A DNA stretch of 64,000 nt from positions 192,001 through 256,000 of the forward strand of contig CBDUPA010000007.1 of assembly GCA_965368975.1 (NCBI GenBank), read 5' to 3'. A program made the position numbers and the translations under genes. The notes below the pieces were generated by a model. The model saw only the letters and a list, made by a program, of their open reading frames with translations. It had not been told where the DNA came from and made no database searches. The DNA is from an uncultured bacterium (GTDB lineage: Bacteria; Acidobacteriota; Thermoanaerobaculia; Multivoradales; JAHZIX01). Of this stretch, positions 48,398-64,000 are shown in pieces (position 1 is the first letter of the stretch; every line of letters starts with the position of its first letter).

Positions 48398-48452
48398 TGC
48401 CGCGTCAACCCGACTCGTCAGTCTGATTCGTCGAATCGCTACCGGAGACCTC

Positions 48453-49532: not shown

Positions 49533-49611
49533 GCCGAGGTAGCTCAGTTATGGTTAGAGCGCCTGACTGTGGATCAGGAGGTCGGCGGTTCAAACCCGCC
49601 CCTCGGTACCA
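49533..49611 (+). tRNA. tRNA-His (GUG), CCA encoded; probable integration site
   Basis: Acceptor GCCGAGG/CCTCGGT, D arm GCTC..GAGC, anticodon arm CCTGA-CTGTGGA-TCAGG, T arm GGCGG-TTCAAAC-CCGCC, 3' ACCA. Confidence 0.95.
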
Positions 49612-49773
49612 ACCAAACCCCCTTAAATCCCCTGTACAAAGCGCTTTAGGACAAGGACTTAGGCTGTCCTGTTGGTCCTTAGTATTTAATTGATTCTCAG
49701 GTTCTGTTGAATTTTGCCGGGTTTTGCTATCCTCAAGGTCGCGGGAAGGTCGCGGGAAAATCGGAGGTAGCGC

Positions 49774-51189
49774 ATGGCATATCGGTCCCGGCACAGACAG
49801 AAGCTCACGCAAGCCCTGGTGAAGAAGGTCCGGAAGGAGCAGCTCCAAGCTTGCGAGGATGCAGCAGGGCGGCGCCTGCCGGATCGGTACATATGGGATT
49901 CCGAATCGCCGCTCGGATTGCGGCTCCACGGCACCGGCGGCGCGAGCTGGGTCCTGAAGCCCTACGCAGTGCAGATGGCCGGTCGCCGCGAGCCGCGGCG
50001 GCACACCTTCGGCCTGGTCTCTGACGTGACGCTGGAAGATGCACAGGACCGGGCGCGGGATCTGTGGGGGAGATACCTGGACGGCGAGGACCCGGTGGGG
50101 GAGATTCAGCAGCGCAAGCTTCTGGCTCGGCAGGGCCGAGCTAGCGACCCGACTGTGGGAGACCTTGCAGAGCGCTACATGAAGGAGGTTGCCGCCAGCA
50201 ACAAGCCCGCTACACGGCGAGAGAAGCAGAGAGGCTGGGATCAGGTCGTAAGGCTGATCGGCGAGCGGCAGGTAGCCAAGGTGGACGCTGAGGACATCGA
50301 GTTCGTGTTGCGCTCCATTGGTGACGGAAAGCCCGTCTGGGCGAACCGCGTTCGAAGCCTCCTGTCGCACGCCTTCAACGTTTGCTCGCGCTGGCGCACA
50401 GTAGAGGGAGAGAGATGGCGAGAACTCAACGCAAACCCGGTTCTAGAGACCGATCCGAACCGTGAGAGAGGTAAGGGTCGCACCTACTCAGATGTCGAAC
50501 TGAGGGCGATCTGGACAGCCTTGGGTCGGCTTGAGGGGCAAGACGAGATTGATTGGGTGCTGGCCATTCTGATCCGGATCTTGATCTACACCGGAGCTCG
50601 GCCGGGCGAACCCGCCAGCGCGCGCTGGTCGAACTGGGATCCGACCAAGCAGCTCATCTGGCTCGAGGAGTCGAAAGCGGATCGCGGCGTAGCCCTGGGT
50701 CGGCGGATCTACCTTCCGACACAGGTACTGGAGTGGGTGCCGTACCTCGGTGCGGCACAGAGCGAGTTCATGTTCCCGCGCCGCAAGCTGAATGCCTCCT
50801 GGAGACAGGAGCGCCAGAAGGATGCCAGCGTCACGAAGACGGCCTGGCGGAAGACATGGCAGAAGGTTGCCGAGGAAGCCGGCCTGGTCGAGACTGCGGG
50901 TGTCGCGCCGCAGCTGCGTCACCTGCGCAACACCTGGATCTCCATGGCTCAACAGGCGGGCATCAAGCAGGCTGAGGCGGGATGGATGGCCGGGCATCGG
51001 CCCAGGGGTATGACGGCCCACTACACGGCGCAGCCGGACGAGTACTGGCTTGAGCAAGCAGAGATCGCCGGCGACTTCATCCGGAAGGCGATTGGCGCTC
51101 AGCCCTTGTCGGCGTCGTCCTCGGGCTCTGGAAGGGCTGCGGTGATCACCTTCAAGCCGGGAATCACCCGGCCGTTGTCCGGGATCTGA
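49774..51189 (+). CDS. int: Tyrosine recombinase / phage integrase
   Basis: Arm-binding N-terminus (KLTQALV...WDSESPLGLR); catalytic R (YTGARPGE), K (SKAD), RHLRNT, GH and Y (AHYT). Confidence 0.9.
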   Translation: MAYRSRHRQKLTQALVKKVRKEQLQACEDAAGRRLPDRYIWDSESPLGLRLHGTGGASWVLKPYAVQMAGRREPRRHTFGLVSDVTLEDAQDRARDLWGRYLDGEDPVGEIQQRKLLARQGRASDPTVGDLAERYMKEVAASNKPATRREKQRGWDQVVRLIGERQVAKVDAEDIEFVLRSIGDGKPVWANRVRSLLSHAFNVCSRWRTVEGERWRELNANPVLETDPNRERGKGRTYSDVELRAIWTALGRLEGQDEIDWVLAILIRILIYTGARPGEPASARWSNWDPTKQLIWLEESKADRGVALGRRIYLPTQVLEWVPYLGAAQSEFMFPRRKLNASWRQERQKDASVTKTAWRKTWQKVAEEAGLVETAGVAPQLRHLRNTWISMAQQAGIKQAEAGWMAGHRPRGMTAHYTAQPDEYWLEQAEIAGDFIRKAIGAQPLSASSSGSGRAAVITFKPGITRPLSGI

Positions 51190-52163: not shown

Positions 52164-52218
52164 GGTTGAATTCCTCCACGGCTGATCCTTTTACTCATAC
52201 CGAAAGAGAGGGTACTAC

Positions 52219-52706: not shown

Positions 52707-53092
52707 TGACCCCTGAGGAGTTCGCGCTGCACGAGGACGTGTTCGCTGCCAGCCCACACGCCTTCGAGGCCTACCAGTCGGCACTGTCCGAGGTTCTAGG
52801 CGACATCGAGAACCCGCAGAAGACGGCGGCCGCGGTGCGCAAGCTGCAGATCTCGATCACGTTCCTGCCCAGCGAGCGCCGCGACGAGGTTGCCCTCGGC
52901 GTAGACGTCAAAGTCGCCAAGCTCGGCCCGTACATCGGTTCCGCGGGTAAGGCCTATCTCGACACCGACCACAACACCGGTGAACGCAAGTTTGCCGTCG
53001 AGAACCCGCGACAGCGGCGCCTGGAGTTCGAAGACGAGCCAGCGCCGACACCCGAGAACAACGTTCGACCGATGAGGAGTACAGATCGATGA
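52706..53092 (+). CDS. Conserved phage protein (YfdP-like / 'replication terminator'-annotated family)
   Basis: LSEVLGDIENPQK...RKLQISITFLP...V.VK.KL.P pattern; paired with the next gene as in many prophages. Confidence 0.55.
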   Translation: MTPEEFALHEDVFAASPHAFEAYQSALSEVLGDIENPQKTAAAVRKLQISITFLPSERRDEVALGVDVKVAKLGPYIGSAGKAYLDTDHNTGERKFAVENPRQRRLEFEDEPAPTPENNVRPMRSTDR

Positions 53093-53817
53093 TGAACGCA
53101 GAGTTCGTAGACAGTATCGCCGAGCTGGCCCAATGGGCGCTGCAATCCGCGAGCGAGCAGCATTTCTTGGTCGGCCCCCGCGGCATACACAACCTGACCG
53201 AGTTGGCCGACAGGGCGGTGGCGGTTGAGAAGCTCAATCTCGTCACACTGGGTGCCCTTGGGGACTACGCCAAGACCCTTGACCCGGTAGCGAAGGATCT
53301 CTTCCTGGTTGCGGCGCACTCTGTCGCGAACATCGTCTCGGGCCCGAACGAGCTGGGCCGGCGCGACGTCTACGCGAGCGTGATCGCGCCCTGCCACGAG
53401 ATCCCGCACCTTCTGCAGCTCTCCCAGCAGGACTTTCGGCGGGAGGTGGGCGCGCGTTTCGTCGAGTCGACCGTGCGTGCCGACCTGCTCGAGCTGGCCT
53501 CCGCCTTGAGCGCGGAGCACGCGGCCGAGTTCAAGGATGACGGACTGAGCATCGAGACGACGTTGCGCCGCAAGGGCGGAGCGCCGAAGCGTGAGAGTAG
53601 CTCGCCCATCTACCTGCTTCAGCCGTGGTGCACCTGGCCCGAGATCGAGCAGCCGACGGTGACGTTCCGCCTGCAAGTGCATTCCACCGATGACGGCTAC
53701 TTCTTGAGCCTCGATCCGTCCATCTCGCCGCTCTGGAAGAGCGAGGCCGCACGCGCGGCCGGTGATTGGCTGCGCGAACAGCTGCCCGAGCCCTGGCACG
53801 GCCGCATCCTGACCTGA
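53089..53817 (+). CDS. Conserved phage protein (YfdQ/DUF2303-like partner)
   Basis: DDGLS...PIYLLQPWCTWPEIEQP...FRL...WKSEA...WLREQL pattern. Confidence 0.55.
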   Translation: MMNAEFVDSIAELAQWALQSASEQHFLVGPRGIHNLTELADRAVAVEKLNLVTLGALGDYAKTLDPVAKDLFLVAAHSVANIVSGPNELGRRDVYASVIAPCHEIPHLLQLSQQDFRREVGARFVESTVRADLLELASALSAEHAAEFKDDGLSIETTLRRKGGAPKRESSSPIYLLQPWCTWPEIEQPTVTFRLQVHSTDDGYFLSLDPSISPLWKSEAARAAGDWLREQLPEPWHGRILT

Positions 53818-53949
53818 TCCCCTTCTGGGTGGTCTCTGGATCCCAGGGGGGAGCGACCCGTCCCGCTCGCGTTACGTGTGGTCTCGCGGGTAAGCCAAGG
53901 GCTTCGAGTGGGGGCGGGTCGCCGTTTTCTCAAGAGGGGGGGCAGTTGG

Positions 53950-54252
53950 ATGCAACACGTGAATTCGGGTTTGGAGTTCAAGGTGCCGGTCACCTGGATT
54001 GTCTGCCGCAGTGATGGAAGGGATGAGGGCACCGTCAAGGTAAAGGCCTATTCCGCCCTGGATGCGGCGCGAGAAGCTGGCGAGCGACTGCATGCGAGCA
54101 GCCCGCTGCTATCGGGCCTGGGATGGCCAAGTCAGACCGATGTCTACGTGCGCCTGGAGCACGCCACGCGCGGCGACCACTATCGGGTGCAAAGCTGCTG
54201 GGAGGTGTCGACGACCGTAAGAGCAATCCGGCCAGGGGAGGCGGGCCTGTGA
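53950..54252 (+). CDS. Hypothetical phage protein
   Basis: ORF coupled by a GTGA overlap to the DUF5131 gene; start uncertain. Confidence 0.5.
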   Translation: MQHVNSGLEFKVPVTWIVCRSDGRDEGTVKVKAYSALDAAREAGERLHASSPLLSGLGWPSQTDVYVRLEHATRGDHYRVQSCWEVSTTVRAIRPGEAGL

Positions 54253-55202
54253 CCACTTCGATCTCCTGGACTGACGAGACCATCAACCCGCTAGTGATGC
54301 AGCGCCCAGGCGGCAAGCTCGGGCACTTCTGCGTGAAGCTCAGCCCAGGCTGTGCGAACTGCTACGCGGCCACGATGTCGGCGCGGAAACTCCCCTCTCG
54401 GCCTGCTGGGTTCAAGTACACCGCCAAGGGCGCAGAGGGTGCGGTGCCAGTCTGCCTGGAAAGCGCGCTCGAGAAGATCAAGCGACCAGGTTCGCCGAGA
54501 AGGATGTTTGTCTGCTCGATGACGGATCTGTTCCTTGATCAGTGGTGGCCTCGGTCGGCGCCGTTCAAGGAATACGCCCAGGCTGCCGACGTGCTAGGGG
54601 CTTGCGCGGGGGCCGTCGAGGACGGTCACGTCGTCCAGATTCTGACCAAGCGGCCCGAAGCAATCCCAGACTGGCTCGGGCGCGTCTTGCAGAGAGATGG
54701 CAACCCCCGTCTCATGATCGGCGTCTCGATCGAGAGTCCGGCGCAGCTGTGGCGCTGGAAAGCTCTTGTCGAGAAGCTCGGCCATACCGCCTGCTCGCTG
54801 TGGATCAGCTTCGAACCGCTCCTCGAGGAGATCACCCTCGGAGACCTGCGGCGTGCCTTCGCTTCGCGCGTACCGGATTTGGTCGTGCTCGGCGGCGAGT
54901 CGGGGCCAGGTGCCAGGCCCTCTGAGCCTCACTGGTACCGCAACCTGATCACGTGGGCGTCCGCGCGCTCGAAGCGTGTTCCGGTCTGGATGAAGCAGTT
55001 CGGAGCCAGACTCAAGGTTGCCGGCACGGACACCTTCGGCGAATACGGCCCAGGCAGGGAGATCGGAACTTCCGGCTACTACCTGGTCAAGACAGGCAGC
55101 AAGGCTGAGGCGCCGGCAAAGTGGCCTGAGTGGGCTCGTATCCGGCAGCTGCCGGAGTGGGCGCGTGAGGACTTCGGGCACTGCTTCATGGAGCCGGGGT
55201 AA
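54249..55202 (+). CDS. DUF5131 (phage Gp37/Gp68) family protein
   Basis: TSISWTDETINP, CVKLSPGCANCYA (Cx6Cx2C), FVCSMTDLF, QILTKRP, SFEPLL, GGESGPGARP and KQFG. Confidence 0.9.
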   Translation: MTTSISWTDETINPLVMQRPGGKLGHFCVKLSPGCANCYAATMSARKLPSRPAGFKYTAKGAEGAVPVCLESALEKIKRPGSPRRMFVCSMTDLFLDQWWPRSAPFKEYAQAADVLGACAGAVEDGHVVQILTKRPEAIPDWLGRVLQRDGNPRLMIGVSIESPAQLWRWKALVEKLGHTACSLWISFEPLLEEITLGDLRRAFASRVPDLVVLGGESGPGARPSEPHWYRNLITWASARSKRVPVWMKQFGARLKVAGTDTFGEYGPGREIGTSGYYLVKTGSKAEAPAKWPEWARIRQLPEWAREDFGHCFMEPG

Positions 55203-55432
55203 TGCCGAAGTACATAGGGTTCTCGGACGAATTGCATCGCACGCTGGAAGCGCGAGCCAATGCGCTGAATATGGACGTCCTCGGGTACGTCAGGCAGGCT
55301 CTTTCGGTCTTCAATGCACTGGTGGAAGAGGAAGAGCGCGGCGGTTCGATTGTCTCGCGGCGGGCGGGCGGGGAGGAGTTTGGACTGGCATTGCTTTGGC
55401 CGGACTTCGAGTCTCAGGAGGTTCCGTCATGA
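55202..55432 (+). CDS. Ribbon-helix-helix (CopG-like) protein
   Basis: Short N-terminal beta strand plus two helices; VRQALSVFNALVEEEERGG. Confidence 0.6.
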   Translation: MPKYIGFSDELHRTLEARANALNMDVLGYVRQALSVFNALVEEEERGGSIVSRRAGGEEFGLALLWPDFESQEVPS

Positions 55433-55872
55433 AGCGCTCCGCCCCCCCTCGCCGACGGACCCCGCTGAAGCGCGGCAAGCCTCCGACCAGGAAGGCGCGT
55501 CTACGAGCGATCACCAAGGACGCCCGCAAGAAGCTGATGCGCTTCGAGCGGCAGTTCGGGAGCGAAGAGCGTGTCGACTGGATGCAGGCGCAGCACTGCT
55601 GCATCTGTGGCACCAGGCCAGTGGACTGTCACCACGTCAAGACGCGCGGTGCTGGCGGTACCGCAGACGACATGGTGCCCCTGTGCAGGACCTGTCATCA
55701 GATCTGGCACAGCCGCGGGCGCGCGTGGTTCGAGAACGAATTCGATATCGACGCCGGCGTGTTGGCACAACGCTACACACGGTGGTGGAGAGAACACCAG
55801 AAGCAGGAAGGAGCAAGGCATGAGCACGACACTGCCGCCACACCAAAAGAAGGGTGGCGTGATGCACGTTGA
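55429..55872 (+). CDS. HNH-type nuclease (DUF968/Ref-like)
   Basis: MKRS..RRRTPLKR basic N-terminus; CCICG...DCHHVKTRGAGG...VPLCRTCHQIWH. Confidence 0.8.
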   Translation: MKRSAPPRRRTPLKRGKPPTRKARLRAITKDARKKLMRFERQFGSEERVDWMQAQHCCICGTRPVDCHHVKTRGAGGTADDMVPLCRTCHQIWHSRGRAWFENEFDIDAGVLAQRYTRWWREHQKQEGARHEHDTAATPKEGWRDAR

Positions 55873-56803
55873 CCGGATTGAAGCGGAGGCCTTCGAAGGC
55901 GGTGGCGTCTGGGGGCATGCCTACGTACCCGTGCTGGAAAGCCTGCTCGAGGCAGGGGCGAACCCGCGCATGCATGCCGGTACTTCAGCCGGTGCGATTG
56001 TCGCCTTCCTGCGCGCTCTCCGGTACCCACCGAGCGAGATCGGAAGACTTCAAGAGTCCACCGACTGGGCGAAGTGGGCCCAGATTGATTTCTCGGCTCT
56101 GTGGCGCCTTCCGTTCAAGAAGGGGCTGGCCTCGACCAAGGTGCCGCGCGAGTGGCTCGAGGAGCGGCTGCTCGATCTCGGCCTGCGCCTGGACCTCACG
56201 TTCAGGGAGCTGCAAGAGGCAACCGAGCACCAGCTGTGCGTAGTCGCAACCCGCTACGCCTGGATCGACGGCCGACCGGATGCTACCCCCCGGGTGTTTT
56301 GCCCAGTCCGAACACCGCACGCCGTTGTTGTTGATGCCGTCCTGGCTTCGATGGCGGTTCCAGGGCTCTGGCCTCCGGTCCAGGTGCGCGAGCATAAGCG
56401 CGCCAGCTACTGGTACTGCGACGGGGGTGCCGGCTACAACCACCCGATCGACCTCTTTCACCATCTGCCCGACGAGAAGGTGATCGGCGTTCGCGTCGAC
56501 ACCTCCCGCGAGATCGAGTTCAGGCGCGCCAGCGTTGAGCCTCGACGCCCGATGCTGGTGCATGCGGTTCGCGCACTAGTGGCAATGCTACGGCGGGAGG
56601 CCAACAGGGCTCACGTCGATCGATGGCACCGCATCGTCCGGATCAACGTCGGGGACCTGCGCGCGCTCGAGTTCGACCTGCCGCCCGAGGACATCGAGGC
56701 GCTGCGTAAGGCCGGCCGGAGGGCGTGGAAGAAGTGGACGGCGCCGGCGCCCAGGATCACCGGTGGCTACGCCTACTTCAGTCAGGCGGAGGTGGAGTCG
56801 TGA
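55820..56803 (+). CDS. Patatin-like phospholipase
   Basis: EGGGVWG (oxyanion), AGTSAG (Ser nucleophile), ASMAVPGLW and CDGG (catalytic Asp); start 55820 or 55862. Confidence 0.88.
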   Translation: MSTTLPPHQKKGGVMHVDRIEAEAFEGGGVWGHAYVPVLESLLEAGANPRMHAGTSAGAIVAFLRALRYPPSEIGRLQESTDWAKWAQIDFSALWRLPFKKGLASTKVPREWLEERLLDLGLRLDLTFRELQEATEHQLCVVATRYAWIDGRPDATPRVFCPVRTPHAVVVDAVLASMAVPGLWPPVQVREHKRASYWYCDGGAGYNHPIDLFHHLPDEKVIGVRVDTSREIEFRRASVEPRRPMLVHAVRALVAMLRREANRAHVDRWHRIVRINVGDLRALEFDLPPEDIEALRKAGRRAWKKWTAPAPRITGGYAYFSQAEVES

Positions 56804-57045
56804 GCAGGAATTGCCGCTTGACGATGGAGGTCACGCCGAAGCTGTGGACCAGGCTCAGCAAGATGTGCACCCCAGAGGGTATTGACTACTTCTGTCTCAT
56901 TCGGCGTGCGCTGGCAGTGTACGAGGCGCTTCTTGCTGAAGAGCGGGCCGGCAACGTCCTGGTGTCGAAGCGTCCAGACGGCACAGAGAAGCGGGTTCTG
57001 CTACGGCCGGATGATGTAGCGCATGATGCGGCGGCGGAGTCATGA
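56800..57045 (+). CDS. Ribbon-helix-helix protein, paralog of 55202-55432
   Basis: RLTMEVTPKLWTRL...IRRALAVYEALLAEERAGNVLVSKRPDG. Confidence 0.6.
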   Translation: MSRNCRLTMEVTPKLWTRLSKMCTPEGIDYFCLIRRALAVYEALLAEERAGNVLVSKRPDGTEKRVLLRPDDVAHDAAAES

Positions 57046-57467
57046 AGTCCCTCACCCTCCACCAGCCGCACACGCACAGCGTCGCCCACCTCGGGAAGCG
57101 GATCGAGAACCGGAACTGGACACCGCCCGCCCACCTGGTCGGCGAGGTGATCGCCATCCATGCCGGCAAGAAGCTTGACCTCGAGGCGCTGGAGGACCTG
57201 CAGCAGAGGGGGTACGAGATCCCCGACGAGCTGCCCGCCAAAGCCGTCGTAGCCGTCGCCCGCTTGGTCAGCGTCGTCGAGGTCGCACCGCCTGAGTCTC
57301 ACCCGCAGCGGCAGTGGTGGATCGGTCCATATGGCTGGATCCTGGACGACGTTGTAGCACTGCCGTCTCCGGTGCCCTGTCGTGGGTATCAGAGGCTCTG
57401 GAACCTGCCGAGTGATGTGGCTGAGGCCGTGTACGAGCAGTGGGGAAAGGCTGAGGTGGCGGCGTGA
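57042..57467 (+). CDS. ASCH domain protein
   Basis: MKSLTLHQP...GKRIENRNW...IAIHAGK...GPYGWIL..V..L..PVPCRGYQRLW. Confidence 0.88.
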   Translation: MKSLTLHQPHTHSVAHLGKRIENRNWTPPAHLVGEVIAIHAGKKLDLEALEDLQQRGYEIPDELPAKAVVAVARLVSVVEVAPPESHPQRQWWIGPYGWILDDVVALPSPVPCRGYQRLWNLPSDVAEAVYEQWGKAEVAA

Positions 57468-57748
57468 GTGACTACGACTGGCACCGACCGCCGGCGACGC
57501 TGAAGGAGGCGGAGATTCTCCAGGGCGCCGTGCTCGAGCAGATGTTGGCCGCCGCCGAGAGCGGCGAAGTCGCCTGCGTGTGTTCCCGTACCCGGCCGCT
57601 GGTCGATGCTTACCGGTGCTACTGCTGTGGGCTTTGGTTCTGCTTGGCGTGCGCCCGGAAGCACTTCGGACCCCGGCCGAAGGCCTTCGGTGACGTGGTT
57701 GAGACGCGACCGAGTGCGGCCTGCTGCACCGGGGAAGGTGCGCCGTGA
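57464..57748 (+). CDS. Cys-rich hypothetical protein (possible zinc finger)
   Basis: CVC...CYCC...CLAC...H; coupled by overlaps on both sides. Confidence 0.55.
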   Translation: MSDYDWHRPPATLKEAEILQGAVLEQMLAAAESGEVACVCSRTRPLVDAYRCYCCGLWFCLACARKHFGPRPKAFGDVVETRPSAACCTGEGAP

Positions 57749-57963
57749 TCTCGGACGTGCAGCTCCGAGGCCTCGACGCCAGCCTACAGCGTGCCTACCT
57801 GCGTGCGCAGGGGCTGCTCCGAGAGATGGGCCCCGCTTCTACGGTGGAGCACCGTAGGGCCACGGCGGCGGCGCTGGCGGGGCTGCGCTACGCAGCGCAA
57901 GTTGCAATGGATGAGATCGACGCTGACCTGGGCGCCGAGCAGGAGCGGAGGGCTACGGCGTGA
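57745..57963 (+). CDS. Hypothetical helical protein
   Basis: GTGA overlap with the upstream gene. Confidence 0.5.
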   Translation: MISDVQLRGLDASLQRAYLRAQGLLREMGPASTVEHRRATAAALAGLRYAAQVAMDEIDADLGAEQERRATA

Positions 57964-58147
57964 CGGCTTCGTCCTCTTCGTCTGGGTCCGGGATGGGTTC
58001 GCCGAGGATGCGCTGTGCTTCCTGCAAGGCGAGGTGTCGCATCCATGAGGCGCGACTCAAGCCGACCCGCTGCGCTGCGCGGTTCAGGTACTCGGCCTGC
58101 GTCTCCTTGATGCGCATGGTGATCGTCTTCTCGAAGGTGCTTCCCAT
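57953..58147 (-). CDS. Ribbon-helix-helix regulator (DUF1778/CopG-like), probably leaderless
   Basis: EKTITMRIKETQAEYLNRAAQRVGLSRASWMRHLAL. Confidence 0.75.
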   Translation of the reverse strand: MGSTFEKTITMRIKETQAEYLNRAAQRVGLSRASWMRHLALQEAQRILGEPIPDPDEEDEAVTP

Positions 58148-58153
58148 ATTTCA

Positions 58154-58206
58154 ATCTTACCATGGCTGGGTGAGTTCTTGACACATGGAGCCGCATTGAC
58201 TAGCAT
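58154..58206. promoter_or_regulatory. Back-to-back promoters
   Basis: Plus strand: TTGACA (58178)-17 nt-TAGCAT (58201). Minus strand: extended -10 TGgTAAGAT ending 6 nt before ATG 58147. Confidence 0.65.
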
Positions 58207-58253
58207 TTGGAGTTTCAATGGAGTTCCACTAACGACAAGCAAAGGAGGCCTTG

Positions 58254-58595
58254 ATGCCTGAGGAGACACCGCTGAACCAACTGAACCCCGAAACCCGAGC
58301 TGGCCTCGCCCACCTGCAAGACCTGACCAGGAAGGTGGGAAAGCAGATCGCCGGCAGAGTCGCCGCCCAGGAAGAGGCGACGAAGACACCGAAGCATCAC
58401 CCCTCGGTGAGTGCCTTGCTTTGCTTCTTCCGGTTCGAACACCTACCCGAGCACCTGCAGCGAGTTGCGAGCCCGTTCGGTGAGCTGGCAAACCAGGTAG
58501 CGGATCGTGCGCCGTTCAACCCTGAGACAACCGTTGCCCTGCGCAAGCTGCTCGAGGCGAAGGATTGCGCAGTGCGCGCGGCGCTAGCCGGCTGA
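58254..58595 (+). CDS. Small phage helical-hairpin protein, Acb2/Tad1-like candidate
   Basis: C-terminal FFRFEHLPEHLQRVASPFGELANQV...PETTVALRKLLEAKDCAVRA; AAGGAGG RBS. Confidence 0.55.
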   Translation: MPEETPLNQLNPETRAGLAHLQDLTRKVGKQIAGRVAAQEEATKTPKHHPSVSALLCFFRFEHLPEHLQRVASPFGELANQVADRAPFNPETTVALRKLLEAKDCAVRAALAG

Positions 58596-58713
58596 TCACG
58601 AGATTTCAACGGGCCCCGATGGCCCAACGAAAGAGACCTACGGCGGGTTGTCGATCAATGAGCCGAGGCCGTGCGACACGGCCACCTTTCACGAATCGAT
58701 CTGGAGGTATGGC

Positions 58714-60810
58714 ATGGGCGCTCCGAGAAGACCAGCAGCACACAGGAACTTCACCTTGAAGCCAGAGCTCTTGCACGGATTGGCTTGGCGGACCCTCTTG
58801 CCGATGACTCGACTCCTGTACATCGAGCTAGGAATGCTCGCTGCCTGTAACGATCGAAGTCCCGGCAAGCTCACGGCGTTCGACGGTGCGTGGCCCTCAT
58901 TGGCTAACGTGTTGCGAGGCTGGAATGCGGCGGATCTTAAACATCATCTCGCAGCTCTTAGGGAGGCTCGGCTCATTGAGACTGACCCCGAGACCGGTCT
59001 CGACTACTTTCCTGAATTGGTGGAGAAGGAAGAGAGACGCCAGGCTGCTGCCGCGAAGAGGGAAGCCAAGAGATCGCAAGGCCGCGTTGCGTCGATGACG
59101 CAGGAAGTCAAAGACCCGGCTCAGATCGATGAAGTGAATGGAAGGCTCGAGGTTCTTGTCGAGGCCGCTCGGGAGCACGAACACGAAGTCTTTAAAGACG
59201 CAACAGGCGACGAGTGGACTCGGCTAGCCGAAGTCCCGCCTGACGTTCTTGCCAACGGCGAAGAGCCTGGTTCCACGAACGACTTCCCACCCACCGAAGA
59301 AGAGCTGGTGCAGCAGTGGGAGCGCCGAAGGGCTGCGCGCCAGGCAGCTGCCGAGGCCGCCCCCGACCCGGACGATCAGGATCCTGACGACCCCCCCGAC
59401 GACGATCCTGCCGGTTCACCACCGCCGGCAGACCCAGATTCAGAACCTCCCCCACCGCCACCGGCGGGAGGGAATCCCGAAACCGGAGGTGATGCCCAGC
59501 AATCAGGCGGCACCTCGGCGGCAGTCGCAGACGAACAGACGCTTGATAGGGAAGAGGGGCGCGTGGCCCCAGTTGAGGCGACTGCTGCCGAGGAATCCCG
59601 TCCCTTGAGACTCAGACTGAAGGAGCGCCTGCAGCAGGAGATGGATCCCGAAGAGTACGCGAGGTGGTTTGACCCGCTGAGGGTTTCGTCCGAGACCGCC
59701 GACAGAATTGTGCTGCGCGTTCCACACGAGCGCTTCCTGCTCGCCCTCGAGGAAGGGCACAGGCCACTCATCAACAGACTGGAAGAGGAAGGAGGCTTCA
59801 CCGTGGAGCTGGCTACCAAGGAGCAAGTACGCGACGCCGAGGAGGCGCGCAGGCTGGCCGAGCTGAGGGAGCAGGGGCCCGCGCCCTTCTACCAGACGCC
59901 GGTGATGACCGGGGAGGCCTACCGAGAGCAGTTCCCGGACCTGGTCGAGCAGGCCGAGAAGGCCGAGAAGGACGAAGGCGAGGGTGCCGCCTGCGCGCGA
60001 GACGGTGCCGCAAGCACAGAAGGAGTTCGGGACGCCGGTACCGCCGGAAGTCGACCAGTGCTTGCGGCAGAAGGTGAAGAGCAGGGTGATCACGAGGGGC
60101 CAGGCGAAGTGGGCGAGCGCGGCGTCTCTGATGAAGGGCATCGCAGTGAAACTCCCTCCGCCCCGGACCAGGTATGGGATCGAGACGGGCGAGATGACGC
60201 GCACATCGGGGCGATGATGGCCGATGGACAGCCACCTCTGCGGTTCGGCCGGCCGCGCTGCGCGGAGGTCGTGCAGTTCCCGCAGACCGAGCCGCGGGCC
60301 GTTGAGGTGCGCGCGCTGGCGCCGGCGGCGATGACCGTTGCCTTGGAGCCTCCGGCGACGTCGAAGAGTGGCGCGGTGGTCGAGATCCTGGATTCCGACC
60401 TACCCGAAGGGGCAACCGAGGAGGAAGCCAAGACGGCGCGTGAAGGGTTCGCCCGCAGGGTTGCGAACGGCGAGGACCCCGAGGCGGCCAAGAGGATCGC
60501 CCTGCGTGCGCTGCGCTCCTTCATGAAGGGAAACATCCTCCGGCGCCAGCAGGCCGACTCTGAGGTGGAGTACCGGACCTGTGACAAGTGCCCGAGCCGG
60601 CAGCTGGCGTCACTGCTGATCAGTGGCGTGCGCTGCGAGTCCTGTGCGATTGAGCACGGTGTGCCGATGGTGGAGAAGGACTACGCCGAGTGTGACAAGT
60701 GCCACTACCGGTTCCGCGTGGCCAAGTTGGTGGGTGGTGTCCGGTGCGAGACCTGTGTTGCCAAGCACGGCGAGAAACAGCAGAACCTGCAGAAGGAGAT
60801 GTTCGGATGA
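58714..60810 (+). CDS. Large phage replication-initiator-like protein (wHTH-like N-terminus, DnaA domain I-like segment, two C4 zinc fingers)
   Basis: TRLLYIEL...L..L....LI N-terminus; LQQEMDPEEYARWFDPL...IVLRVPHERF; two CDKC-x14-CE(S/T)C units; GGAGG RBS before ATG 58714. Confidence 0.6.
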   Translation: MGAPRRPAAHRNFTLKPELLHGLAWRTLLPMTRLLYIELGMLAACNDRSPGKLTAFDGAWPSLANVLRGWNAADLKHHLAALREARLIETDPETGLDYFPELVEKEERRQAAAAKREAKRSQGRVASMTQEVKDPAQIDEVNGRLEVLVEAAREHEHEVFKDATGDEWTRLAEVPPDVLANGEEPGSTNDFPPTEEELVQQWERRRAARQAAAEAAPDPDDQDPDDPPDDDPAGSPPPADPDSEPPPPPPAGGNPETGGDAQQSGGTSAAVADEQTLDREEGRVAPVEATAAEESRPLRLRLKERLQQEMDPEEYARWFDPLRVSSETADRIVLRVPHERFLLALEEGHRPLINRLEEEGGFTVELATKEQVRDAEEARRLAELREQGPAPFYQTPVMTGEAYREQFPDLVEQAEKAEKDEGEGAACARDGAASTEGVRDAGTAGSRPVLAAEGEEQGDHEGPGEVGERGVSDEGHRSETPSAPDQVWDRDGRDDAHIGAMMADGQPPLRFGRPRCAEVVQFPQTEPRAVEVRALAPAAMTVALEPPATSKSGAVVEILDSDLPEGATEEEAKTAREGFARRVANGEDPEAAKRIALRALRSFMKGNILRRQQADSEVEYRTCDKCPSRQLASLLISGVRCESCAIEHGVPMVEKDYAECDKCHYRFRVAKLVGGVRCETCVAKHGEKQQNLQKEMFG

Positions 60811-60984
60811 AGACAACAAGCTCGCGAGCGTTCAGTTGGCGATCTTCCGAGCGCTGATTGAAACATCAAGACTTACGCTGTGGTTTTGGAGCCCTCTGAG
60901 AAATCAGCACTTGACACGGGATCCGACCACGAGGAAGATCAAAGCACTATGCCTTTTGAAAGCCATTAGGAGGAAGTTGAGAAT

Positions 60985-62394
60985 ATGCGTTACGGACGTC
61001 ATGTGTGGAATGGTGCGACTCTGCGGCAGTTGACGATCTTGGAATTGGCCAACATCCTGGATGAGCAATCGGAGGCGGCCGCGTTGCACATGCCAGCGAT
61101 GTTGGATCTCTTTCGGTCCAACGAGATTACCGGGGCGATGGCGGAGCGGCTCGAAGAAGATCAGCTGGACTTGGGTGGACTTTACGGGTTTCGGAAGTCC
61201 TACATGCAGCGACGGGCTGGTCGCATCGAGGTACTAGAGGCGCTAGAGAAGGATCAGTTCCGGGCGCTGTTCGAGTCCGAGCCGGAAGCGGAAACAGCTC
61301 CGGTGATCCAGTGGAAGAATCTCGAAGCCGTCGTCGCGGAGATGGTCAAGCGAAGCCGGAGCACCGTAGATGCCCAGCCGGAGGCTGGGTGGTGGTGGGC
61401 CAAGCTGGCGTACGACCTTGCGCATCGCATGAGGCGTCGATGGGAGGGTGAGAGTCCCGAATCGAAGCTCGAAGTCGCGCTAGGACCCGGCGGTGGACTC
61501 CAGGCCTCCGGGAGCCTGGATGAGGACGGCCCGCTGGGGCACGACTCAGAGAATGAAGCCGAGGTGGAGGCGTGGCGGTTTCTTGAGGCTCGGAGCCTTC
61601 GCGCTCTGGCCAATGCCACGCGCGCTATCGGACGTCTGACGGAAGCAGGGCGACTCTTTGGCGAGGCCGAGCAGTGCGTGGCCGCGAGGGCTTCCGGAGG
61701 AGCGTTGACTGCGGAGGTCTGTGACTTGCTCTCGCTGGAGGCTTCCTTGGAGACTGACAGGGGCAACTGGGAGCGAGGCATAGAGCTTCTGGAACTGCAC
61801 GGGCAGTTGGCGGACGGAGGGGAGTGGCACAAGGGACGCATCAAACTGGCCAAGTTGCACTACGAGCGCGACGACGTGGAGACGGCTATCGCGATAAGCC
61901 TAGACTTGGTTCAGCAGATGCCGGCAGGGCGAATGAGGGATGCCGCTACCCTTAATGTGTGCCTCTACCTGGTTGAGGCGGGGCATGTGCAAGATGCAGA
62001 GGATCGACTTCAGGCGAACAAGCTCGCTGGCGTCCCGGACGAGCGCATCTCTTGGATTCGCGCGAAGATCTTGGCCGCAAAGGGCAGCAGCGAGGCGGAG
62101 CGCCACTTCGAGATCGCGCTCAACCGCCTACTGGCGAAGAGAAACGGACCTCTTGCAGCACTGGTTTGGCTTGAATGGGGGCTCTGGCTCGTGGAGATTA
62201 ACCGACCCCAGGATGCTGCCGAGAAGGCCAGCCTGGCAGGAGCGGTCTTGCAGGTGACGGACATGGAAAGAGAGGGCCTAGCCGCTGCCGTGCTAGACCT
62301 GCAGGCCAAGCTGCAGCAGCAGGCCCTCACGCTAAAGGTGGCCGCTCGGCTGCGCTCTGTCTTTGAGGCAGCCTGCAGTGGGCGGCGAGCCTAA
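60985..62394 (+). CDS. TPR-like all-helical protein, candidate peptide receptor/regulator
   Basis: TPR-like helical pairs (ALANATRAIGRLTEAGRLFGEAE; LEASLETDRGNWERGIELLE; LAKLHYERDDVETAIAI; YLVEAGHVQDAED; WLVEINRPQDAAE); AGGAGG RBS; no signal peptide. Confidence 0.7.
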   Translation: MRYGRHVWNGATLRQLTILELANILDEQSEAAALHMPAMLDLFRSNEITGAMAERLEEDQLDLGGLYGFRKSYMQRRAGRIEVLEALEKDQFRALFESEPEAETAPVIQWKNLEAVVAEMVKRSRSTVDAQPEAGWWWAKLAYDLAHRMRRRWEGESPESKLEVALGPGGGLQASGSLDEDGPLGHDSENEAEVEAWRFLEARSLRALANATRAIGRLTEAGRLFGEAEQCVAARASGGALTAEVCDLLSLEASLETDRGNWERGIELLELHGQLADGGEWHKGRIKLAKLHYERDDVETAIAISLDLVQQMPAGRMRDAATLNVCLYLVEAGHVQDAEDRLQANKLAGVPDERISWIRAKILAAKGSSEAERHFEIALNRLLAKRNGPLAALVWLEWGLWLVEINRPQDAAEKASLAGAVLQVTDMEREGLAAAVLDLQAKLQQQALTLKVAARLRSVFEAACSGRRA

Positions 62395-62495
62395 CCGTCA
62401 GGATCAATGGCGGCGGACTTGTTGCCCTCGTCTTCCGCCTGCGATGCCTCGCCACCACCGAACACGGTCTCTACGATCCAAATCAGAAGGTCCAT
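62391..62495 (-). CDS. 34-aa peptide precursor MDLLIWIVETVFGGGEASQAEDEGNKSAAIDPDG
   Basis: GGAGG RBS upstream of ATG 62495; leader and C-terminus match the adjacent repeat protein; stop codon overlaps the TPR gene stop. Confidence 0.75.
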   Translation of the reverse strand: MDLLIWIVETVFGGGEASQAEDEGNKSAAIDPDG

Positions 62496-62668
62496 AACAC
62501 TTTCCTCCAACCCGGCGAGTCGTCGATACACCACCCCCATGGCGGTGGACGCCCGCCGAAGTCCTAACTCTTCAAGGTACCAAAGCAGAGTCGGCAACGC
62601 ATGCCCGGCTCTGCTTAAGTACGCGAGTTAGGGGAGTGGTAGAGATCTGGAGAAGAGCGGGCGAGGGC

Positions 62669-63268
62669 TTAGGCTGGTTGACCGTTCGGGTCGATGGCCG
62701 CAGAGGCGCCGTTCGGATCGATCATCACGGACTTGTTGCCGTTCGGATCGATGGCAGCGGATCGCCCATCGGGGTCGATCATTACCGAGGCGCCATCCGG
62801 GTCGATCATTACGGACTTGGCGATCACGAACCCGTCGGGGTCGATGGCTGACGAGATGCCATCCGGATCAATCATCGCGGACCGACCGTTGGGGTCCAGT
62901 GCTGGCGACATCCCGTTCGGGTCGATCGCGGCAGACTTGCCATCGGGGTCAATCACTACCGAGCGTCCATTCGGGTCGATCGCGACCGACTTGGCGACGA
63001 GGCAGCCGTCCGGATCTATGGCCACCGATCGGCCGTTTGGATCGATCATTGCCGAAGCTCCGCCAGGATGACTGGCCACCGATTGACCGTTGGGGTCGAT
63101 GGCTACAGACGCGCCGTTGGGATCGATCGCGACTGAGCGACCATTTGGGTCGATGGCAGAGGAAAGGCCATCCGGGTCGATCATCACTGATCGGCCGTGC
63201 GGATCGATGAAGGTACCGGCGTTGTCGTGAGCGAAGACAGTCAGAAGAGTCAAGAGCAGTAGTTCCAC
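62669..63268 (-). CDS. 199-aa multi-copy peptide precursor with 19 xSxxIDP(N/D)G units
   Basis: GGAGGAG RBS before GTG; hydrophobic leader MELLLLTLLTVFA followed by 9-aa repeats. Confidence 0.8.
   Translation of the reverse strand: MELLLLTLLTVFAHDNAGTFIDPHGRSVMIDPDGLSSAIDPNGRSVAIDPNGASVAIDPNGQSVASHPGGASAMIDPNGRSVAIDPDGCLVAKSVAIDPNGRSVVIDPDGKSAAIDPNGMSPALDPNGRSAMIDPDGISSAIDPDGFVIAKSVMIDPDGASVMIDPDGRSAAIDPNGNKSVMIDPNGASAAIDPNGQPA
62681..63220 (-). repeat. 27-bp degenerate coding tandem repeat (19 units, three with short insertions)
   Basis: Recurring gg(a/g)tc(g/a/t)at cores on the plus strand at 27-nt spacing, with synonymous variation. Confidence 0.9.
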
Positions 63269-63416
63269 GGAAGGCTCCTCCAGAGCATGGGTGGGTGATG
63301 GCGAGTACTATATCTGAGAGTCTGGTGGTGGTGATTTCTCTTGAGTACGTGAGTTAGGATTGGGGCGCGGTTCGAGGTGACCTAGGACGAGCTAGCCAGC
63401 AGGAGGATGGTGATCC

Positions 63417-64000
63417 GTGGACAAGAAGAACTCTGTTGTTTATAGCGCTGGTTTCACGGTGCGAGACAATTCTGAGCTGAGCTCTCTATGCTTGGTCCAT
63501 GATCAGATCCTGTTGCCAGCAACTGGTGACCCTCCGGAACTCTCAGCAGGTGTGGATGACACTCCTGAGGAAGTCGCTGTGAATTACATCTTGATGACGA
63601 TTTTTGGGAAAGCGCCTGAATCATTTCTCAGTTGGGAGCGGCGTCATGCCTTGCTCTTTGATGAGTCAGTTCTTCAGCGCCTCGAGCCTCCAGTTGGCCG
63701 AGATTCGTTTCTTGATGCAGACTTGGAGGTAAGACTACAGAGGTCTCAGATACGAAAAGTCTTCTTTGGAATGATTGAAGATGTTCTTGAGTACTCACGT
63801 GGACTGGGGTCGACAAGTACGCCGATGAAGGTGCTTGGTAAATTAGATTCTGAGGCTCGGAGGCATGCTGTTTACTTCTGGGAAACTAGCTACCTGGCGA
63901 TGCACTTATCCCGCAAGGATCTGCCCAAAGACTTACCTTCAGTTGGCGTCGCTTCAGCCTCGGACCAACCGACGAACACTCAGCTTGCCGGCTCTGTGAT
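63417..64000 (+). CDS. Hypothetical protein with lower GC (moron-like), truncated by window edge
   Basis: Absent from the ORF track. Open frame from GTG 63417 (MDKKNSVVYSAGFTVRDNSELSSLCLVHDQILLP...) to the window end; AGGAGG upstream. Confidence 0.7.
   Translation, partial: MDKKNSVVYSAGFTVRDNSELSSLCLVHDQILLPATGDPPELSAGVDDTPEEVAVNYILMTIFGKAPESFLSWERRHALLFDESVLQRLEPPVGRDSFLDADLEVRLQRSQIRKVFFGMIEDVLEYSRGLGSTSTPMKVLGKLDSEARRHAVYFWETSYLAMHLSRKDLPKDLPSVGVASASDQPTNTQLAGSV

What the first reader, a model, noticed from the sequence alone, without database searches (positions are those of the whole stretch)
62669..63268. Polyprotein of 19 variant nonapeptides: signal library or multi-core RiPP precursor
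Seen: after a 16-aa leader the units read AGTFIDPHG, RSVMIDPDG, LSSAIDPNG, RSVAIDPNG, ASVAIDPNG, QSVASHPGG (degenerate), ASAMIDPNG, RSVAIDPDG, [CLVA]KSVAIDPNG, RSVVIDPDG, KSAAIDPNG, MSPALDPNG, RSAMIDPDG, ISSAIDPDG, [FVIA]KSVMIDPDG, ASVMIDPDG, RSAAIDPNG, [N]KSVMIDPNG, ASAAIDPNG. No two units are identical. Positions 1, 3, 4 and 8 vary while S2, I5, D6, P7 and G9 are nearly fixed, and the codons differ synonymously, which points to protein-level selection rather than recent slippage. Known: multi-copy precursors occur in yeast alpha-factor, cyanobactins and dikaritins; DPNG/DPDG forms tight beta-turns. Inference: cleavage after each Gly would release a family of related peptides that could amplify a signal or address or jam several receptor variants. 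An uncleaved beta-solenoid or metal-binding repeat protein is the alternative. No modifying enzyme is visible nearby.
Basis: partly seen in the sequence, partly recalled or inferred. Interest (0 to 1): 0.85.

Follow-up and report, generated by a model that had tools for sequence, protein, structure and literature searches.

The report
Prophage peptide array paired with TPR
A prophage gene encodes 19 slightly different copies of a nine-residue motif that, in this bacterial lineage, normally sits at the end of small secreted peptides encoded next to TPR proteins, so it looks like an amplified member of an undescribed peptide-and-receptor gene family rather than a modified-peptide precursor.

Summary
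In detail: window 62669-63268 (-) is a 199-aa ORF with a 16-residue hydrophobic N-terminus and 19 non-identical units xSxxIDP[ND]G, kept by protein-level selection.

It is not isolated. The TPR neighbour (60985-62394) belongs to a family of 18 soluble TPR proteins in this genome. Of these, 12 of 18 have a small ORF ending in [GS]xx-hydrophobic-DPxG beside them, against 17 of 2519 control ORFs.

- **Relatives:** 38 of 68 TPR loci carry such an upstream ORF, mostly with a signal-peptide-like start and 1-6 units.
- **Reverse test:** starting from the motif, 35 of 53 motif clusters lie beside a family TPR.
- **Setting:** the locus sits in a prophage at tRNA-His. A second, related prophage carries the same convergent TPR plus leaderless peptide pair.

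Best reading: an amplified, multivalent ligand or propeptide for TPR receptors, analogous to but not homologous with RRNPP/arbitrium systems. Binding, secretion and cleavage are not shown.

No modifying enzyme is conserved, so the RiPP reading is unsupported.

The parts
62669..63268 (-). 199-aa ORF: hydrophobic 16-residue N-terminus, then 19 variant units xSxxIDP[ND]G
63275..63281 (-). Shine-Dalgarno-like GGAGGAG, 6 nt before the GTG start of the 199-aa ORF
   Evidence: read from the sequence
63340..63358 (-). 19-nt element upstream of the 199-aa ORF; a copy 17 of 19 identical lies upstream of the 34-aa ORF; found nowhere else in the genome at up to 2 substitutions over its 15-nt core, apart from weaker look-alikes
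62391..62495 (-). 34-aa paralogue: related hydrophobic N-terminus, acidic linker, one unit at the exact C-terminus; own GGAGGAA ribosome-binding site; its 3' end overlaps the TPR gene's 3' end by 4 nt
62614..62632 (-). second copy of the 19-nt upstream element, before the 34-aa ORF
60985..62394 (+). 469-aa TPR protein, a divergent (prophage-type) member of the TPR family coupled to motif peptides; convergent with the two peptide genes
   Evidence: (E 5.6e-23 against a family model built without it; collinear over model positions 164-441)
63417..64000 (+). start of a 339-aa protein of unknown family (runs past the window end), divergent from the 199-aa ORF; lower G+C; membership of the module not shown
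   Evidence: no Pfam, PHROG or PADLOC match
49533..51189 (+). tRNA-His followed by a tyrosine integrase: left end of the prophage that carries the locus

Best explanation
The 199-aa ORF is a real, prophage-borne, greatly amplified member of a lineage-specific family of small proteins. Their functional element is a short motif, [G/S]-x-x-hydrophobic-D-P-[N/D]-G, usually placed at or within three residues of the C-terminus. The family is genetically paired with soluble TPR proteins of about 450 aa. I propose that the motif is the ligand of the TPR domain. Most family members are Sec-exported propeptides (signal peptide, Trp-rich amphipathic helix, linker, 1-6 motifs) that could work like the peptide/TPR-receptor pairs of Bacillota (RRNPP, arbitrium). 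The window's two genes are leaderless variants that belong with the prophage's own TPR gene. The 19-unit protein would supply, whole or after cleavage, many slightly different ligands at once. Shown: the gene, the motif family, the gene pairing in both directions, the prophage setting, and the same pairing in a second prophage. Inferred: TPR-motif binding, export, processing, and any signalling output.
For: (1) Paralogues in the same genome carry the same unit: a 34-aa ORF directly downstream and small ORFs on contigs C1, C6 and C23. (2) The neighbour is a TPR-only protein family (TPR_12 in 36 of 37 members), with 18 members in G000. Of these, 12 of 18 have a motif ORF within 700 nt, against 17 of 2519 control ORFs of 350-600 aa (Fisher p 6e-21). 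Nine lie upstream on the same strand and three are convergent. (3) No other neighbour is conserved among the 17 loci compared. (4) In relatives, 38 of 68 TPR loci have an upstream motif ORF. Gly at position -3, which was not part of the search pattern, occurs in 56 of 59 units. Of the 40 motif ORFs, 32 start with a signal-peptide-like segment by my heuristic, 24 end within 3 residues of the motif and 15 end exactly at its Gly. (5) Genome-wide, GxxMDP[ND]G gives 78 places in 23 of 41 genomes, with 0 for the reversed-pattern control in all 41. Counts track TPR-family matches (Spearman 0.82): 22 of 23 genomes with at least 10 matches have the motif, against 1 of 18 with fewer. (6) Reverse test: 35 of 53 motif clusters lie beside a family TPR. 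I matched 24 by eye to coordinates listed, and 11 of the 29 others had a TPR in the fetched locus. (7) The locus is in a prophage with integrase, tape measure and endolysin. A related prophage on contig C28 (tape measure 42% identical) has a 27%-identical TPR with a convergent, overlapping, leaderless one-unit ORF in the same position. (8) A record labelled Thermoanaerobaculia has a 5-unit, signal-bearing ORF abutting a convergent family TPR. (9) Tandemly duplicated pheromone propeptides are documented for phage Rap-Phr systems (PMC11343458, abstract read).
Against: No binding, export, cleavage or expression evidence exists. The 199-aa protein has no Sec-like leader, unlike 32 of 40 relatives' ORFs. 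Its N-terminus is only about 12 hydrophobic residues with no basic residue. Its units have Ser, not Gly, at -3, and in G000 that form was seen only at the 34-aa ORF and on C1 and C23; other genomes were not screened for the Ser form apart from the strict IDP[ND]G pattern scans. The window's TPR is a distant family member (83 bits, against 125-550 bits for the 16 stronger members) and lacks the H-x4-C-x2-C N-terminal motif of many members. No output domain was recognised in the TPR proteins. The strongest sequence matches of the 199-aa protein are repeat regions in large proteins, and 4 of 4 genomes holding the closest such proteins lack the TPR family at E<=1e-30, so the motif can exist without the TPR. 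6 of 18 TPR genes in G000 and 30 of 68 loci in relatives showed no motif ORF by my criteria. 12 of 53 motif clusters are orphan small ORFs. More distant class-level TPR homologues showed no convincing upstream motif ORF in 12 loci: 10 had no candidate, and the two ORFs that matched a looser pattern did not look like family members.
Confidence: 0.5

Rival explanations
1. An uncleaved, folded repeat protein. Each nonapeptide would be a short beta-strand plus a DP[ND]G turn, stacking into a single-layer beta-meander (as in the CPAP G-box) or a beta-roll-like solenoid that might bind Ca2+. It would serve the prophage or host as a structural, adhesive or matrix protein, and the TPR neighbour would be incidental.
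For: phmmer against 1.84 billion representatives gave 539 hits at E<=1e-3, mostly repeat regions of proteins of 400-7000 aa. Four of ten examined carry Tcp10_C (G-box) repeats. Against solved structures, the protein aligns in register at a 9-residue period with the CPAP G-box (4bxp, E 7e-7) and with designed propeller blades. The closest bacterial matches (P0001, P0003) are secreted 731-783-aa proteins with long arrays of the same motif, and their genomes lack the TPR family (0 of 4). Three consecutive hydrophobic residues before the turn suit a beta-strand.
Against: The same motif occurs singly at the extreme C-terminus of dozens of small ORFs, where it cannot form a repeat fold. The pairing with TPR genes is far above chance and recurs in a second prophage. 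Pfam Tcp10_C scores 12.8 bits against a cutoff of 36. The matches rest on a short turn motif, so they may reflect convergence. Both faces of the putative strand are hydrophobic, unlike soluble single-layer sheets (my reasoning, not tested).
Confidence: 0.25
2. A multi-core RiPP precursor: a leader peptide followed by 19 cores that are modified and excised by dedicated enzymes.
For: Leader-plus-repeated-core layout; variable and fixed positions within the units.
Against: No modifying enzyme, protease or transporter is conserved beside any of the 17 family loci compared. The neighbours in the window are TPR, phage and unknown proteins. There is no match to NCBIfam or Pfam precursor families. No Cys, Thr or aromatic residues of the kind most RiPP chemistry uses are conserved in the units.
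Confidence: 0.05
3. A cytoplasmic, uncleaved multivalent decoy. The leaderless 19-unit protein stays inside the lysogen and titrates or clusters TPR receptors, whether the prophage's own or the host's roughly 15 chromosomal ones.
For: No Sec-like leader. The TPR proteins look soluble, with no N-terminal hydrophobic segment apart from one over-extended start (crude hydropathy scan). By eye, the units include one identical to a unit of the C1 paralogue and ones a single residue away from units of C23 and of the 34-aa ORF.
Against: Purely inferential. Short leaderless forms also occur next to chromosomal TPR genes (L051, L055, L188), so being leaderless is not special to the prophage. No binding data exist.
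Confidence: 0.12
4. A selectively neutral runaway repeat expansion of the neighbouring 34-aa gene, with no function of its own.
For: It lies next to its one-unit paralogue and shares a 19-nt upstream element with it. Arrays this long were not seen in other TPR-linked ORFs, where the maximum was 6 units in 40 ORFs.
Against: The frame is open through 199 codons. Units have diverged to 62% nucleotide identity while five of nine residues stay fixed with synonymous codon variety. The gene has its own ribosome-binding site.
Confidence: 0.05

Closest known systems
RRNPP(A) peptide quorum-sensing pairs of Bacillota (Rap-Phr, NprR-NprX, PlcR-PapR) and phage arbitrium AimR-AimP
   Same: A two-gene unit: a 250-500-aa TPR protein next to a 10-100-aa ORF with a Sec-type leader, which is the operational definition quoted in PMC10075063 (passages read). 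The presumed active element sits at the C-terminus. There are many paralogous pairs per genome and copies on prophages. Tandemly duplicated pheromones are known in phage Phr propeptides (PMC11343458, abstract).
   Different: There is no detectable homology beyond generic TPR. RapF scores E 1e-7, below eukaryotic LGN/Pins and designed TPRs, and no RRNPP-specific Pfam domain was among the 25 families listed of 61 matched across the 37 members. No HTH or Rap-type N-terminal domain was found. The host lineage is not Bacillota: the named records that share the features are labelled Acidobacteriota or Thermoanaerobaculia. In most loci the peptide gene lies upstream of or convergent with the receptor gene. 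A conserved Trp-rich helix follows the signal peptide. The window's peptides are leaderless. 19 copies far exceeds known duplications (recalled).
CPAP/SAS-4 G-box (Pfam Tcp10_C), a single-layer beta-meander
   Same: A nine-residue period of strand plus a P-[DN]-G turn, with an in-register alignment to 4bxp and 4ld1 (E about 7e-7).
   Different: The G-box is a eukaryotic centriole protein domain. The Pfam model scores below threshold here (12.8 against 36 bits). The similarity is confined to the turn motif. No fold prediction was possible.
RTX nonapeptide beta-roll (GGxGxDxUx)
   Same: A nine-residue tandem unit with a conserved Asp and Gly and a hydrophobic position (motif recalled).
   Different: The consensus differs, with no GGxG. 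No RTX or HemolysinCabind family appeared among the Pfam matches at E<=1. No type I secretion genes were noted nearby.
Large secreted array proteins of other Acidobacteriota (P0001, P0003; loci L081, L095, L127)
   Same: The same [KR]G-x-x-hydrophobic-DPNG unit, often at a 9-10-residue period, with 14-59 motif hits (DP[NDHG]G) per open frame. These are the best phmmer hits (E 1e-50 and 1e-43).
   Different: They are 700 to over 1100 aa, with a signal peptide and flanking non-repeat domains, Gly rather than Ser at -3, and irregular spacing. Their genomes show no family TPR (0 of 4 at E<=1e-30).

Membership tests
RRNPP(A) / arbitrium receptor-propeptide systems | Receptor of 250-500 aa with a peptide-binding TPR domain | tested here: met
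   TPR_12 in 36 of 37 family members and TPR_MalT in 14 of 37; lengths 382-493 aa. That the TPR domain binds peptide is inferred, not shown.
RRNPP(A) / arbitrium receptor-propeptide systems | Sequence homology to Rap, NprR, PlcR, PrgX, Rgg or AimR families | tested here: not met
   A profile of 11 members against PDB sequences gives RapF at E 1e-7, behind many unrelated TPR proteins. No RRNPP-specific Pfam family appears among the 25 families listed of 61 matched.
RRNPP(A) / arbitrium receptor-propeptide systems | N-terminal effector domain (HTH DNA-binding domain or Rap three-helix bundle) | tested here: not met
   No such Pfam or NCBIfam domain was found. Many members instead have an H-x4-C-x2-C motif. 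Its resemblance to zinc-binding anti-sigma domains is recalled and was not detected by Pfam.
RRNPP(A) / arbitrium receptor-propeptide systems | Adjacent small ORF (10-100 aa) exported by Sec | tested here: inconclusive
   Adjacency is met. 32 of 40 relatives' ORFs look signal-bearing by my simple heuristic, but SignalP was not available. The window's 199-aa and 34-aa ORFs lack such a leader.
RRNPP(A) / arbitrium receptor-propeptide systems | Mature peptide released, re-imported and bound by the receptor | not testable with these tools
No RNA or peptide data exist.
RiPP multi-core precursor (cyanobactin-like and similar) | Co-located modifying enzymes and/or protease | tested here: not met
   No conserved neighbour other than the small ORF was found in the 17 family loci compared. 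Window neighbours have no enzyme families of that kind.
RiPP multi-core precursor (cyanobactin-like and similar) | Precursor matches a known precursor family | tested here: not met
   NCBIfam: 0 of 10 peptides matched, and the 199-aa ORF had only sub-threshold repeat artefacts. Pfam: 0 credible matches.
Tcp10_C / G-box repeat | Pfam PF07202 at or above the gathering score | tested here: not met
   12.8 bits against a cutoff of 36.
RTX beta-roll | GGxGxDxUx consensus and a HemolysinCabind match | tested here: not met
   The unit consensus differs, and no such family appears.
Motif-peptide / TPR module described here (unnamed) | Small ORF with [G/S]xx-hydrophobic-DP[ND]G near its C-terminus, within about 700 nt of a family TPR gene | tested here: met
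   The window's 34-aa and 199-aa ORFs lie convergent to TPR 60985-62394. The TPR scores E 5.6e-23 against a family model built without it.

The most novel reading that the evidence does not exclude
A temperate phage of an acidobacterium carries its own peptide/TPR communication pair and, next to it, a 19-variant ligand array. The array would let the prophage talk to, eavesdrop on or jam the host's roughly 15 chromosomal peptide-TPR circuits. That would be the first arbitrium/Rap-Phr-like peptide signalling outside Bacillota, with a built-in multi-specific 'signal library'.
Probability: 0.13. Interest if true: 0.9.

Novelty: new variant of a known kind. Interest (0 to 1): 0.7.

Why it matters
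Genetically encoded peptide signals read by cytoplasmic TPR receptors are treated as a hallmark of Bacillota and their phages (PMC10075063, introduction passage). This work finds a non-homologous but similarly built two-gene unit. It is expanded to about 15-40 copies per genome across several families of one bacterial order and also sits on prophages.

If the pairing reflects ligand and receptor, it would open peptide communication, or at least a large unknown regulatory layer, in a poorly studied and mostly uncultured lineage. It would also give a defined motif to synthesise and test.

The 19-unit gene is the extreme case. It would show how such signals diversify by tandem duplication.

If the array instead folds, it is a compact natural nine-residue beta-repeat with few solved precedents.

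Tried and rejected
**Homology searches that gave nothing useful**
- A word-index search of the 199-aa ORF at similar lengths found nothing.
- The same search with a chromosomal TPR gave 5 unnamed hits.
- The Pfam and NCBIfam hits of the 199-aa ORF (CN_hydrolase, TruB_C, FlgF and others) have no matched stretch passing on its own, or score far below cutoffs. I treat them as repeat artefacts.
- PADLOC: no defence-system match for the TPR, the 199-aa or the 339-aa proteins. Only the patatin gene matched a phospholipase effector model.

**Pattern and collection scans**
- Strict IDP[ND]G tandem pattern: 1 of 41 related genomes, G000 only.
- Phage collection: one weak hit for the array (E 2e-4) and none for the TPR.
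- IMG/VR pattern scan: 2 stretches, neither relevant.
- Metagenome pattern scan: 1 stretch, irrelevant.
- The genome-contig scan gave 76 stretches. Most are unrelated DPDG/DPNG low-complexity repeats in Actinomycetes and Bacillota. About a dozen are Acidobacteriota records.

**Other negative checks**
- attR of the prophage: no repeat of 13 nt or more from the tRNA 3' half or its flank was found downstream on the contig.
- Sigma-70 promoter scan: none near the genes.
- The window TPR has no close homologue in 40 relatives with this single-protein query, only 27-33% matches to the general family.
- Sequencing runs: no RNA holder listed.
- Literature: searches on the motif strings, DPNG plus TPR plus Acidobacteria, RRNPP plus Gram-negative, and arbitrium plus Acidobacteriota returned nothing describing this family. 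I saw listings only, except the two papers cited. Supplements are closed and were not seen.
- I considered a ribosome-stalling upstream ORF and dropped it, because most relatives' ORFs carry signal-peptide-like starts and some are convergent to the TPR gene.
Full report
**1. The observation**

Window 62669-63268 on the minus strand is an open frame of 199 codons that starts at GTG. An in-frame stop lies 15 codons upstream, so the N-terminus cannot be longer. A GGAGGAG ribosome-binding site sits 6 nt before the start.

One search splits the product into a 16-residue hydrophobic N-terminus and 19 units at a nine-residue period, with inserts of 4, 4 and 1 residues.

- No two units are identical; the best pair shares 8 of 9 residues.
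- Ser2 (18/19), Ile5 (17/19), Asp6 (18/19), Pro7 (19/19) and Gly9 (19/19) are nearly fixed.
- Positions 1, 3, 4 and 8 vary.
- The conserved Ser, Pro and Gly columns each use four codons, and the mean nucleotide identity between units is 0.62.
- Tandem Repeats Finder reports only 3.1 copies.

The codon-position G+C of this frame (0.64/0.49/0.71) follows the genome's coding pattern. The overlapping plus-strand ORF does not.

**2. It is one of a family in the same genome**

A six-frame scan of the 7.1-Mb assembly for hydrophobic-DP[NDHG]G clusters found four more small ORFs:

- a 34-aa ORF directly downstream (62391-62495, minus strand) with a related hydrophobic N-terminus and one unit at its very end;
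- a roughly 47-aa ORF on contig C1 with three units;
- a 43-aa ORF on C6 with three to four units;
- an 80-aa ORF on C23 with a classical signal peptide and four identical units.

Read by eye, one unit of the C1 ORF is identical to unit 7 of the array. Units of C23 and of the 34-aa ORF differ from array units by one residue.

The two window genes each have their own ribosome-binding site. They also share a 19-nt upstream element, 17 of 19 identical, that has no equally close copy elsewhere in the genome.

**3. The TPR neighbour is the conserved partner**

The 469-aa protein at 60985-62394 and the proteins beside the C6 and C23 ORFs are TPR proteins of similar size. The family consists of TPR repeats only: TPR_12 in 36 of 37 members and TPR_MalT in 14 of 37. 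A crude hydropathy scan shows no N-terminal hydrophobic segment apart from one over-extended start.

A family model built without the window protein finds 18 members under 600 aa in G000. The window protein scores E 5.6e-23 and aligns collinearly over model positions 164-441.

Of the 18, 12 have an ORF carrying [GS]xx-hydrophobic-DPxG in its last 30 residues within 700 nt. The control figure is 17 of 2519 other ORFs of 350-600 aa (Fisher p 6e-21). Nine of these lie upstream on the same strand. Three are convergent: C23, C28 and the window.

An all-against-all comparison of neighbours within 5 kb, covering the 17 family members found, found no other conserved gene.

**4. The pairing holds in other genomes, in both directions**

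The TPR family is present in 36 of 41 related genomes at E<=1e-10, often with 14-42 matches. That count includes some generic TPR proteins and is capped by the tool. At E<=1e-40 it appeared in 7 of 201 genomes sampled across the phylum, all within the same class.

In 68 TPR loci from relatives, 38 have an upstream motif ORF, giving 40 ORFs in all.

- 32 of 40 begin with a signal-peptide-like segment by my heuristic.
- Most then have a Trp-rich amphipathic stretch and a low-complexity linker (alignment A3).
- Unit numbers are 1 (28 ORFs), 2 (8), 3 (3) and 6 (1).
- 24 of 40 end within three residues of the last motif, and 15 end exactly at its Gly.
- Gly at -3, which the search pattern did not require, is present in 56 of 59 units, and position -5 is usually Asp, Lys or Glu.

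Starting instead from the motif, the pattern for GxxMDP[ND]G gives 78 places in 23 of 41 genomes and none for the reversed control. Counts correlate with TPR matches (Spearman 0.82). 22 of 23 genomes with at least 10 matches have the motif, against 1 of 18 with fewer. Relatives are not independent, so that statistic overstates the case.

The 78 places form 53 clusters.

- 24 lie beside a TPR listed. I matched these by eye.
- Of the other 29, fetched have a family TPR in the 6-kb locus.
- 6 lie inside large ORFs.
- 12 are orphan small ORFs, one of them on a truncated contig.

That makes 35 of 53 clusters TPR-linked.

More distant class-level TPR homologues showed no convincing upstream motif ORF in 12 loci. 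Ten had no candidate, and the two ORFs that matched a looser pattern did not look like family members.

**5. The window locus is prophage cargo, and a second prophage repeats it**

The region contains, in order:

- tRNA-His at 49533-49611, then a tyrosine integrase at 49774-51189;
- an Sf6-type small-terminase-like gene, DUF5131, and a patatin-like phospholipase;
- a 720-aa protein with a weak DnaA_N match;
- the TPR gene, the two peptide genes, and a 339-aa unknown;
- on the minus strand, a pentapeptide-repeat membrane protein, an M15 endolysin, a Laminin_G_3 protein, a 2088-aa tape measure and a minor tail protein.

Contig C28 carries a related prophage, with tape measure 42%, patatin 47% and endolysin 34% identical. 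In the same position it has a TPR 27% identical to the window's (E 1.6e-9). It also has a convergent, overlapping, leaderless small ORF with a related N-terminus and one motif.

The window's 34-aa ORF likewise overlaps the TPR's 3' end by 4 nt. The 34-aa ORF therefore looks like the canonical partner, and the 199-aa gene looks like its duplicated and expanded copy.

Convergent pairs also occur outside prophage context: C23; the Thermoanaerobaculia-labelled record L117/L208 with five units and a signal peptide; and L224, L232, L239 and L240. Leaderless short forms also occur next to chromosomal TPRs in relatives: L051 and L055 and L188.

**6. What it most likely does**

The evidence shows a two-gene unit in which the conserved, C-terminally placed motif is the common denominator of the small partner. 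TPR domains commonly bind short extended peptides, often C-terminal ones. That is established knowledge of Hop-EEVD, PEX5-PTS1 and RRNPP receptors, recalled here.

I therefore infer that the motif is the TPR ligand, and that most family members are exported propeptides. The residues just before DP vary between paralogues and between orthologues, as would be expected of specificity positions.

On this reading the 199-aa protein is a multivalent or multi-copy source of 19 related ligands. Tandemly duplicated pheromones in phage Rap-Phr propeptides are a documented precedent (PMC11343458, abstract). Whether the array is exported and cut, or acts intact in the cytoplasm, cannot be decided. It lacks the Sec-like leader. 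The output of the TPR proteins is unknown, since no effector domain was recognised.

**7. The main rival**

The strongest sequence matches of the array are repeat regions of large proteins. These include eukaryotic G-box proteins and two acidobacterial secreted proteins with long arrays of the same unit.

The array aligns in register with the solved CPAP G-box, a single-layer beta-meander, at E about 7e-7. Four of four genomes holding such large array proteins lack the TPR family.

The single-motif C-terminal ORFs, and the TPR coupling, argue that in this lineage the motif is used as a short linear element.

**8. Comparison with known systems and novelty**

By architecture the modules satisfy the operational definition used to detect RRNPP systems: TPR protein of 250-500 aa beside a 10-100-aa exported ORF (PMC10075063, figure legend passage). 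They fail tests of family membership.

- There is no specific homology.
- No HTH or Rap domain was found.
- The gene order is different.
- The phylum is different.

They are not RiPP clusters, RTX proteins or Tcp10_C members (see the membership table). My four literature searches found no description of the motif or the pairing; I saw listings only.

I rate it a new variant of a known kind. It is a peptide/TPR pairing of independent origin, with an unusually amplified prophage-borne member.

**9. Verdict**

| Claim | Confidence |
|---|---|
| Gene family and gene pairing are real | about 0.85 |
| The motif is the TPR ligand and the array a multivalent ligand or propeptide | about 0.5 |
| The system serves cell-cell or phage-host signalling | about 0.3 |

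Interest is 0.7.

Noticed in passing
window 49533-64000 and on to about C7:280000 (L194): A prophage integrated at tRNA-His. It has an integrase, a small-terminase-like gene, DUF5131, patatin, an M15 endolysin, a Laminin_G_3 tail protein, a 2088-aa tape measure and a minor tail protein. No attR repeat was found downstream.
   Followed up: partly
G000 contig C28, about 500-64000: A second, related prophage with syntenic tail, lysis, patatin and integrase genes at 26-47% identity. It has its own TPR plus a convergent leaderless motif ORF at C28:908-2390.
   Followed up: partly
C-termini of family TPR proteins (e.g. L031, L039, L041, L045): Many family TPR proteins end in a conserved tail of the form [DNQ]-P-x-L-[RK]-[FY]-x-[ED]-P. 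Whether it folds back as a pseudo-ligand is unknown.
   Followed up: no
N-termini of family TPR proteins (consensus): Many members carry H-x4-C-x2-C after a 'GEL/I-S-x-EE'-like stretch, which recalls zinc-binding anti-sigma domains (H-x3-C-x2-C, recalled). Pfam zf-HC2 was not detected, and the window's prophage-type TPR lacks the motif.
   Followed up: partly
P0001, P0003; loci L063/L112, L067, L081, L095, L127: Other Acidobacteriota encode large secreted proteins (700 to over 1100 aa) with 14-59 hits of the DPNG-type motif per open frame, between unknown N- and C-terminal domains. P0001 and P0003 also have a C-terminal acidic 'DEWD' repeat. Their genomes lack the TPR family.
   Followed up: partly
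L110 (Chitinophagales-labelled record), about 942-1122: A 60-codon open frame with a hydrophobic start and four near-identical nine-residue units ending in DPNG, outside Acidobacteriota. Its context was not examined.
   Followed up: no
window 63417-64000 (continues to C7:256436): A 339-aa protein, divergent from the array gene, with lower G+C (0.54 for 63000-63999). A hydrophobic C-terminal stretch is seen in its translation. It has no match in Pfam, NCBIfam (window-encoded part only), PHROGs or PADLOC.
   Followed up: partly
window 55571-56803 and C28:28303-29280: A patatin-like phospholipase is conserved in both prophages at 47% identity. It matches a PADLOC phospholipase effector model (E 5.6e-8) and may be a phage-borne defence or lysis accessory.
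   Followed up: no
window 58648-60810: A 720-aa protein just upstream of the TPR gene. It has a weak DnaA_N match, a long acidic, Pro-rich middle and paired CxxC motifs at its C-terminus, and may be the prophage replication or regulatory protein.
   Followed up: no
G000 C1:680710-682290: An orphan three-unit leaderless motif ORF lies beside a pentapeptide-repeat protein and a truncated M15-peptidase homologue that is 59% identical to the window prophage's endolysin. This may be a prophage remnant. No TPR gene is nearby.
   Followed up: partly
window 48351-49484: A histidine-specific SAM methyltransferase (Methyltransf_33, EgtD-like; E 1e-103) lies immediately before the tRNA-His attachment site.
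   Followed up: no
window 62694-63071 (+): A 125-aa shadow ORF on the opposite strand of the array reads as a 'PSGSI' repeat. Its codon-position G+C is atypical, so it is probably not a gene.
   Followed up: yes
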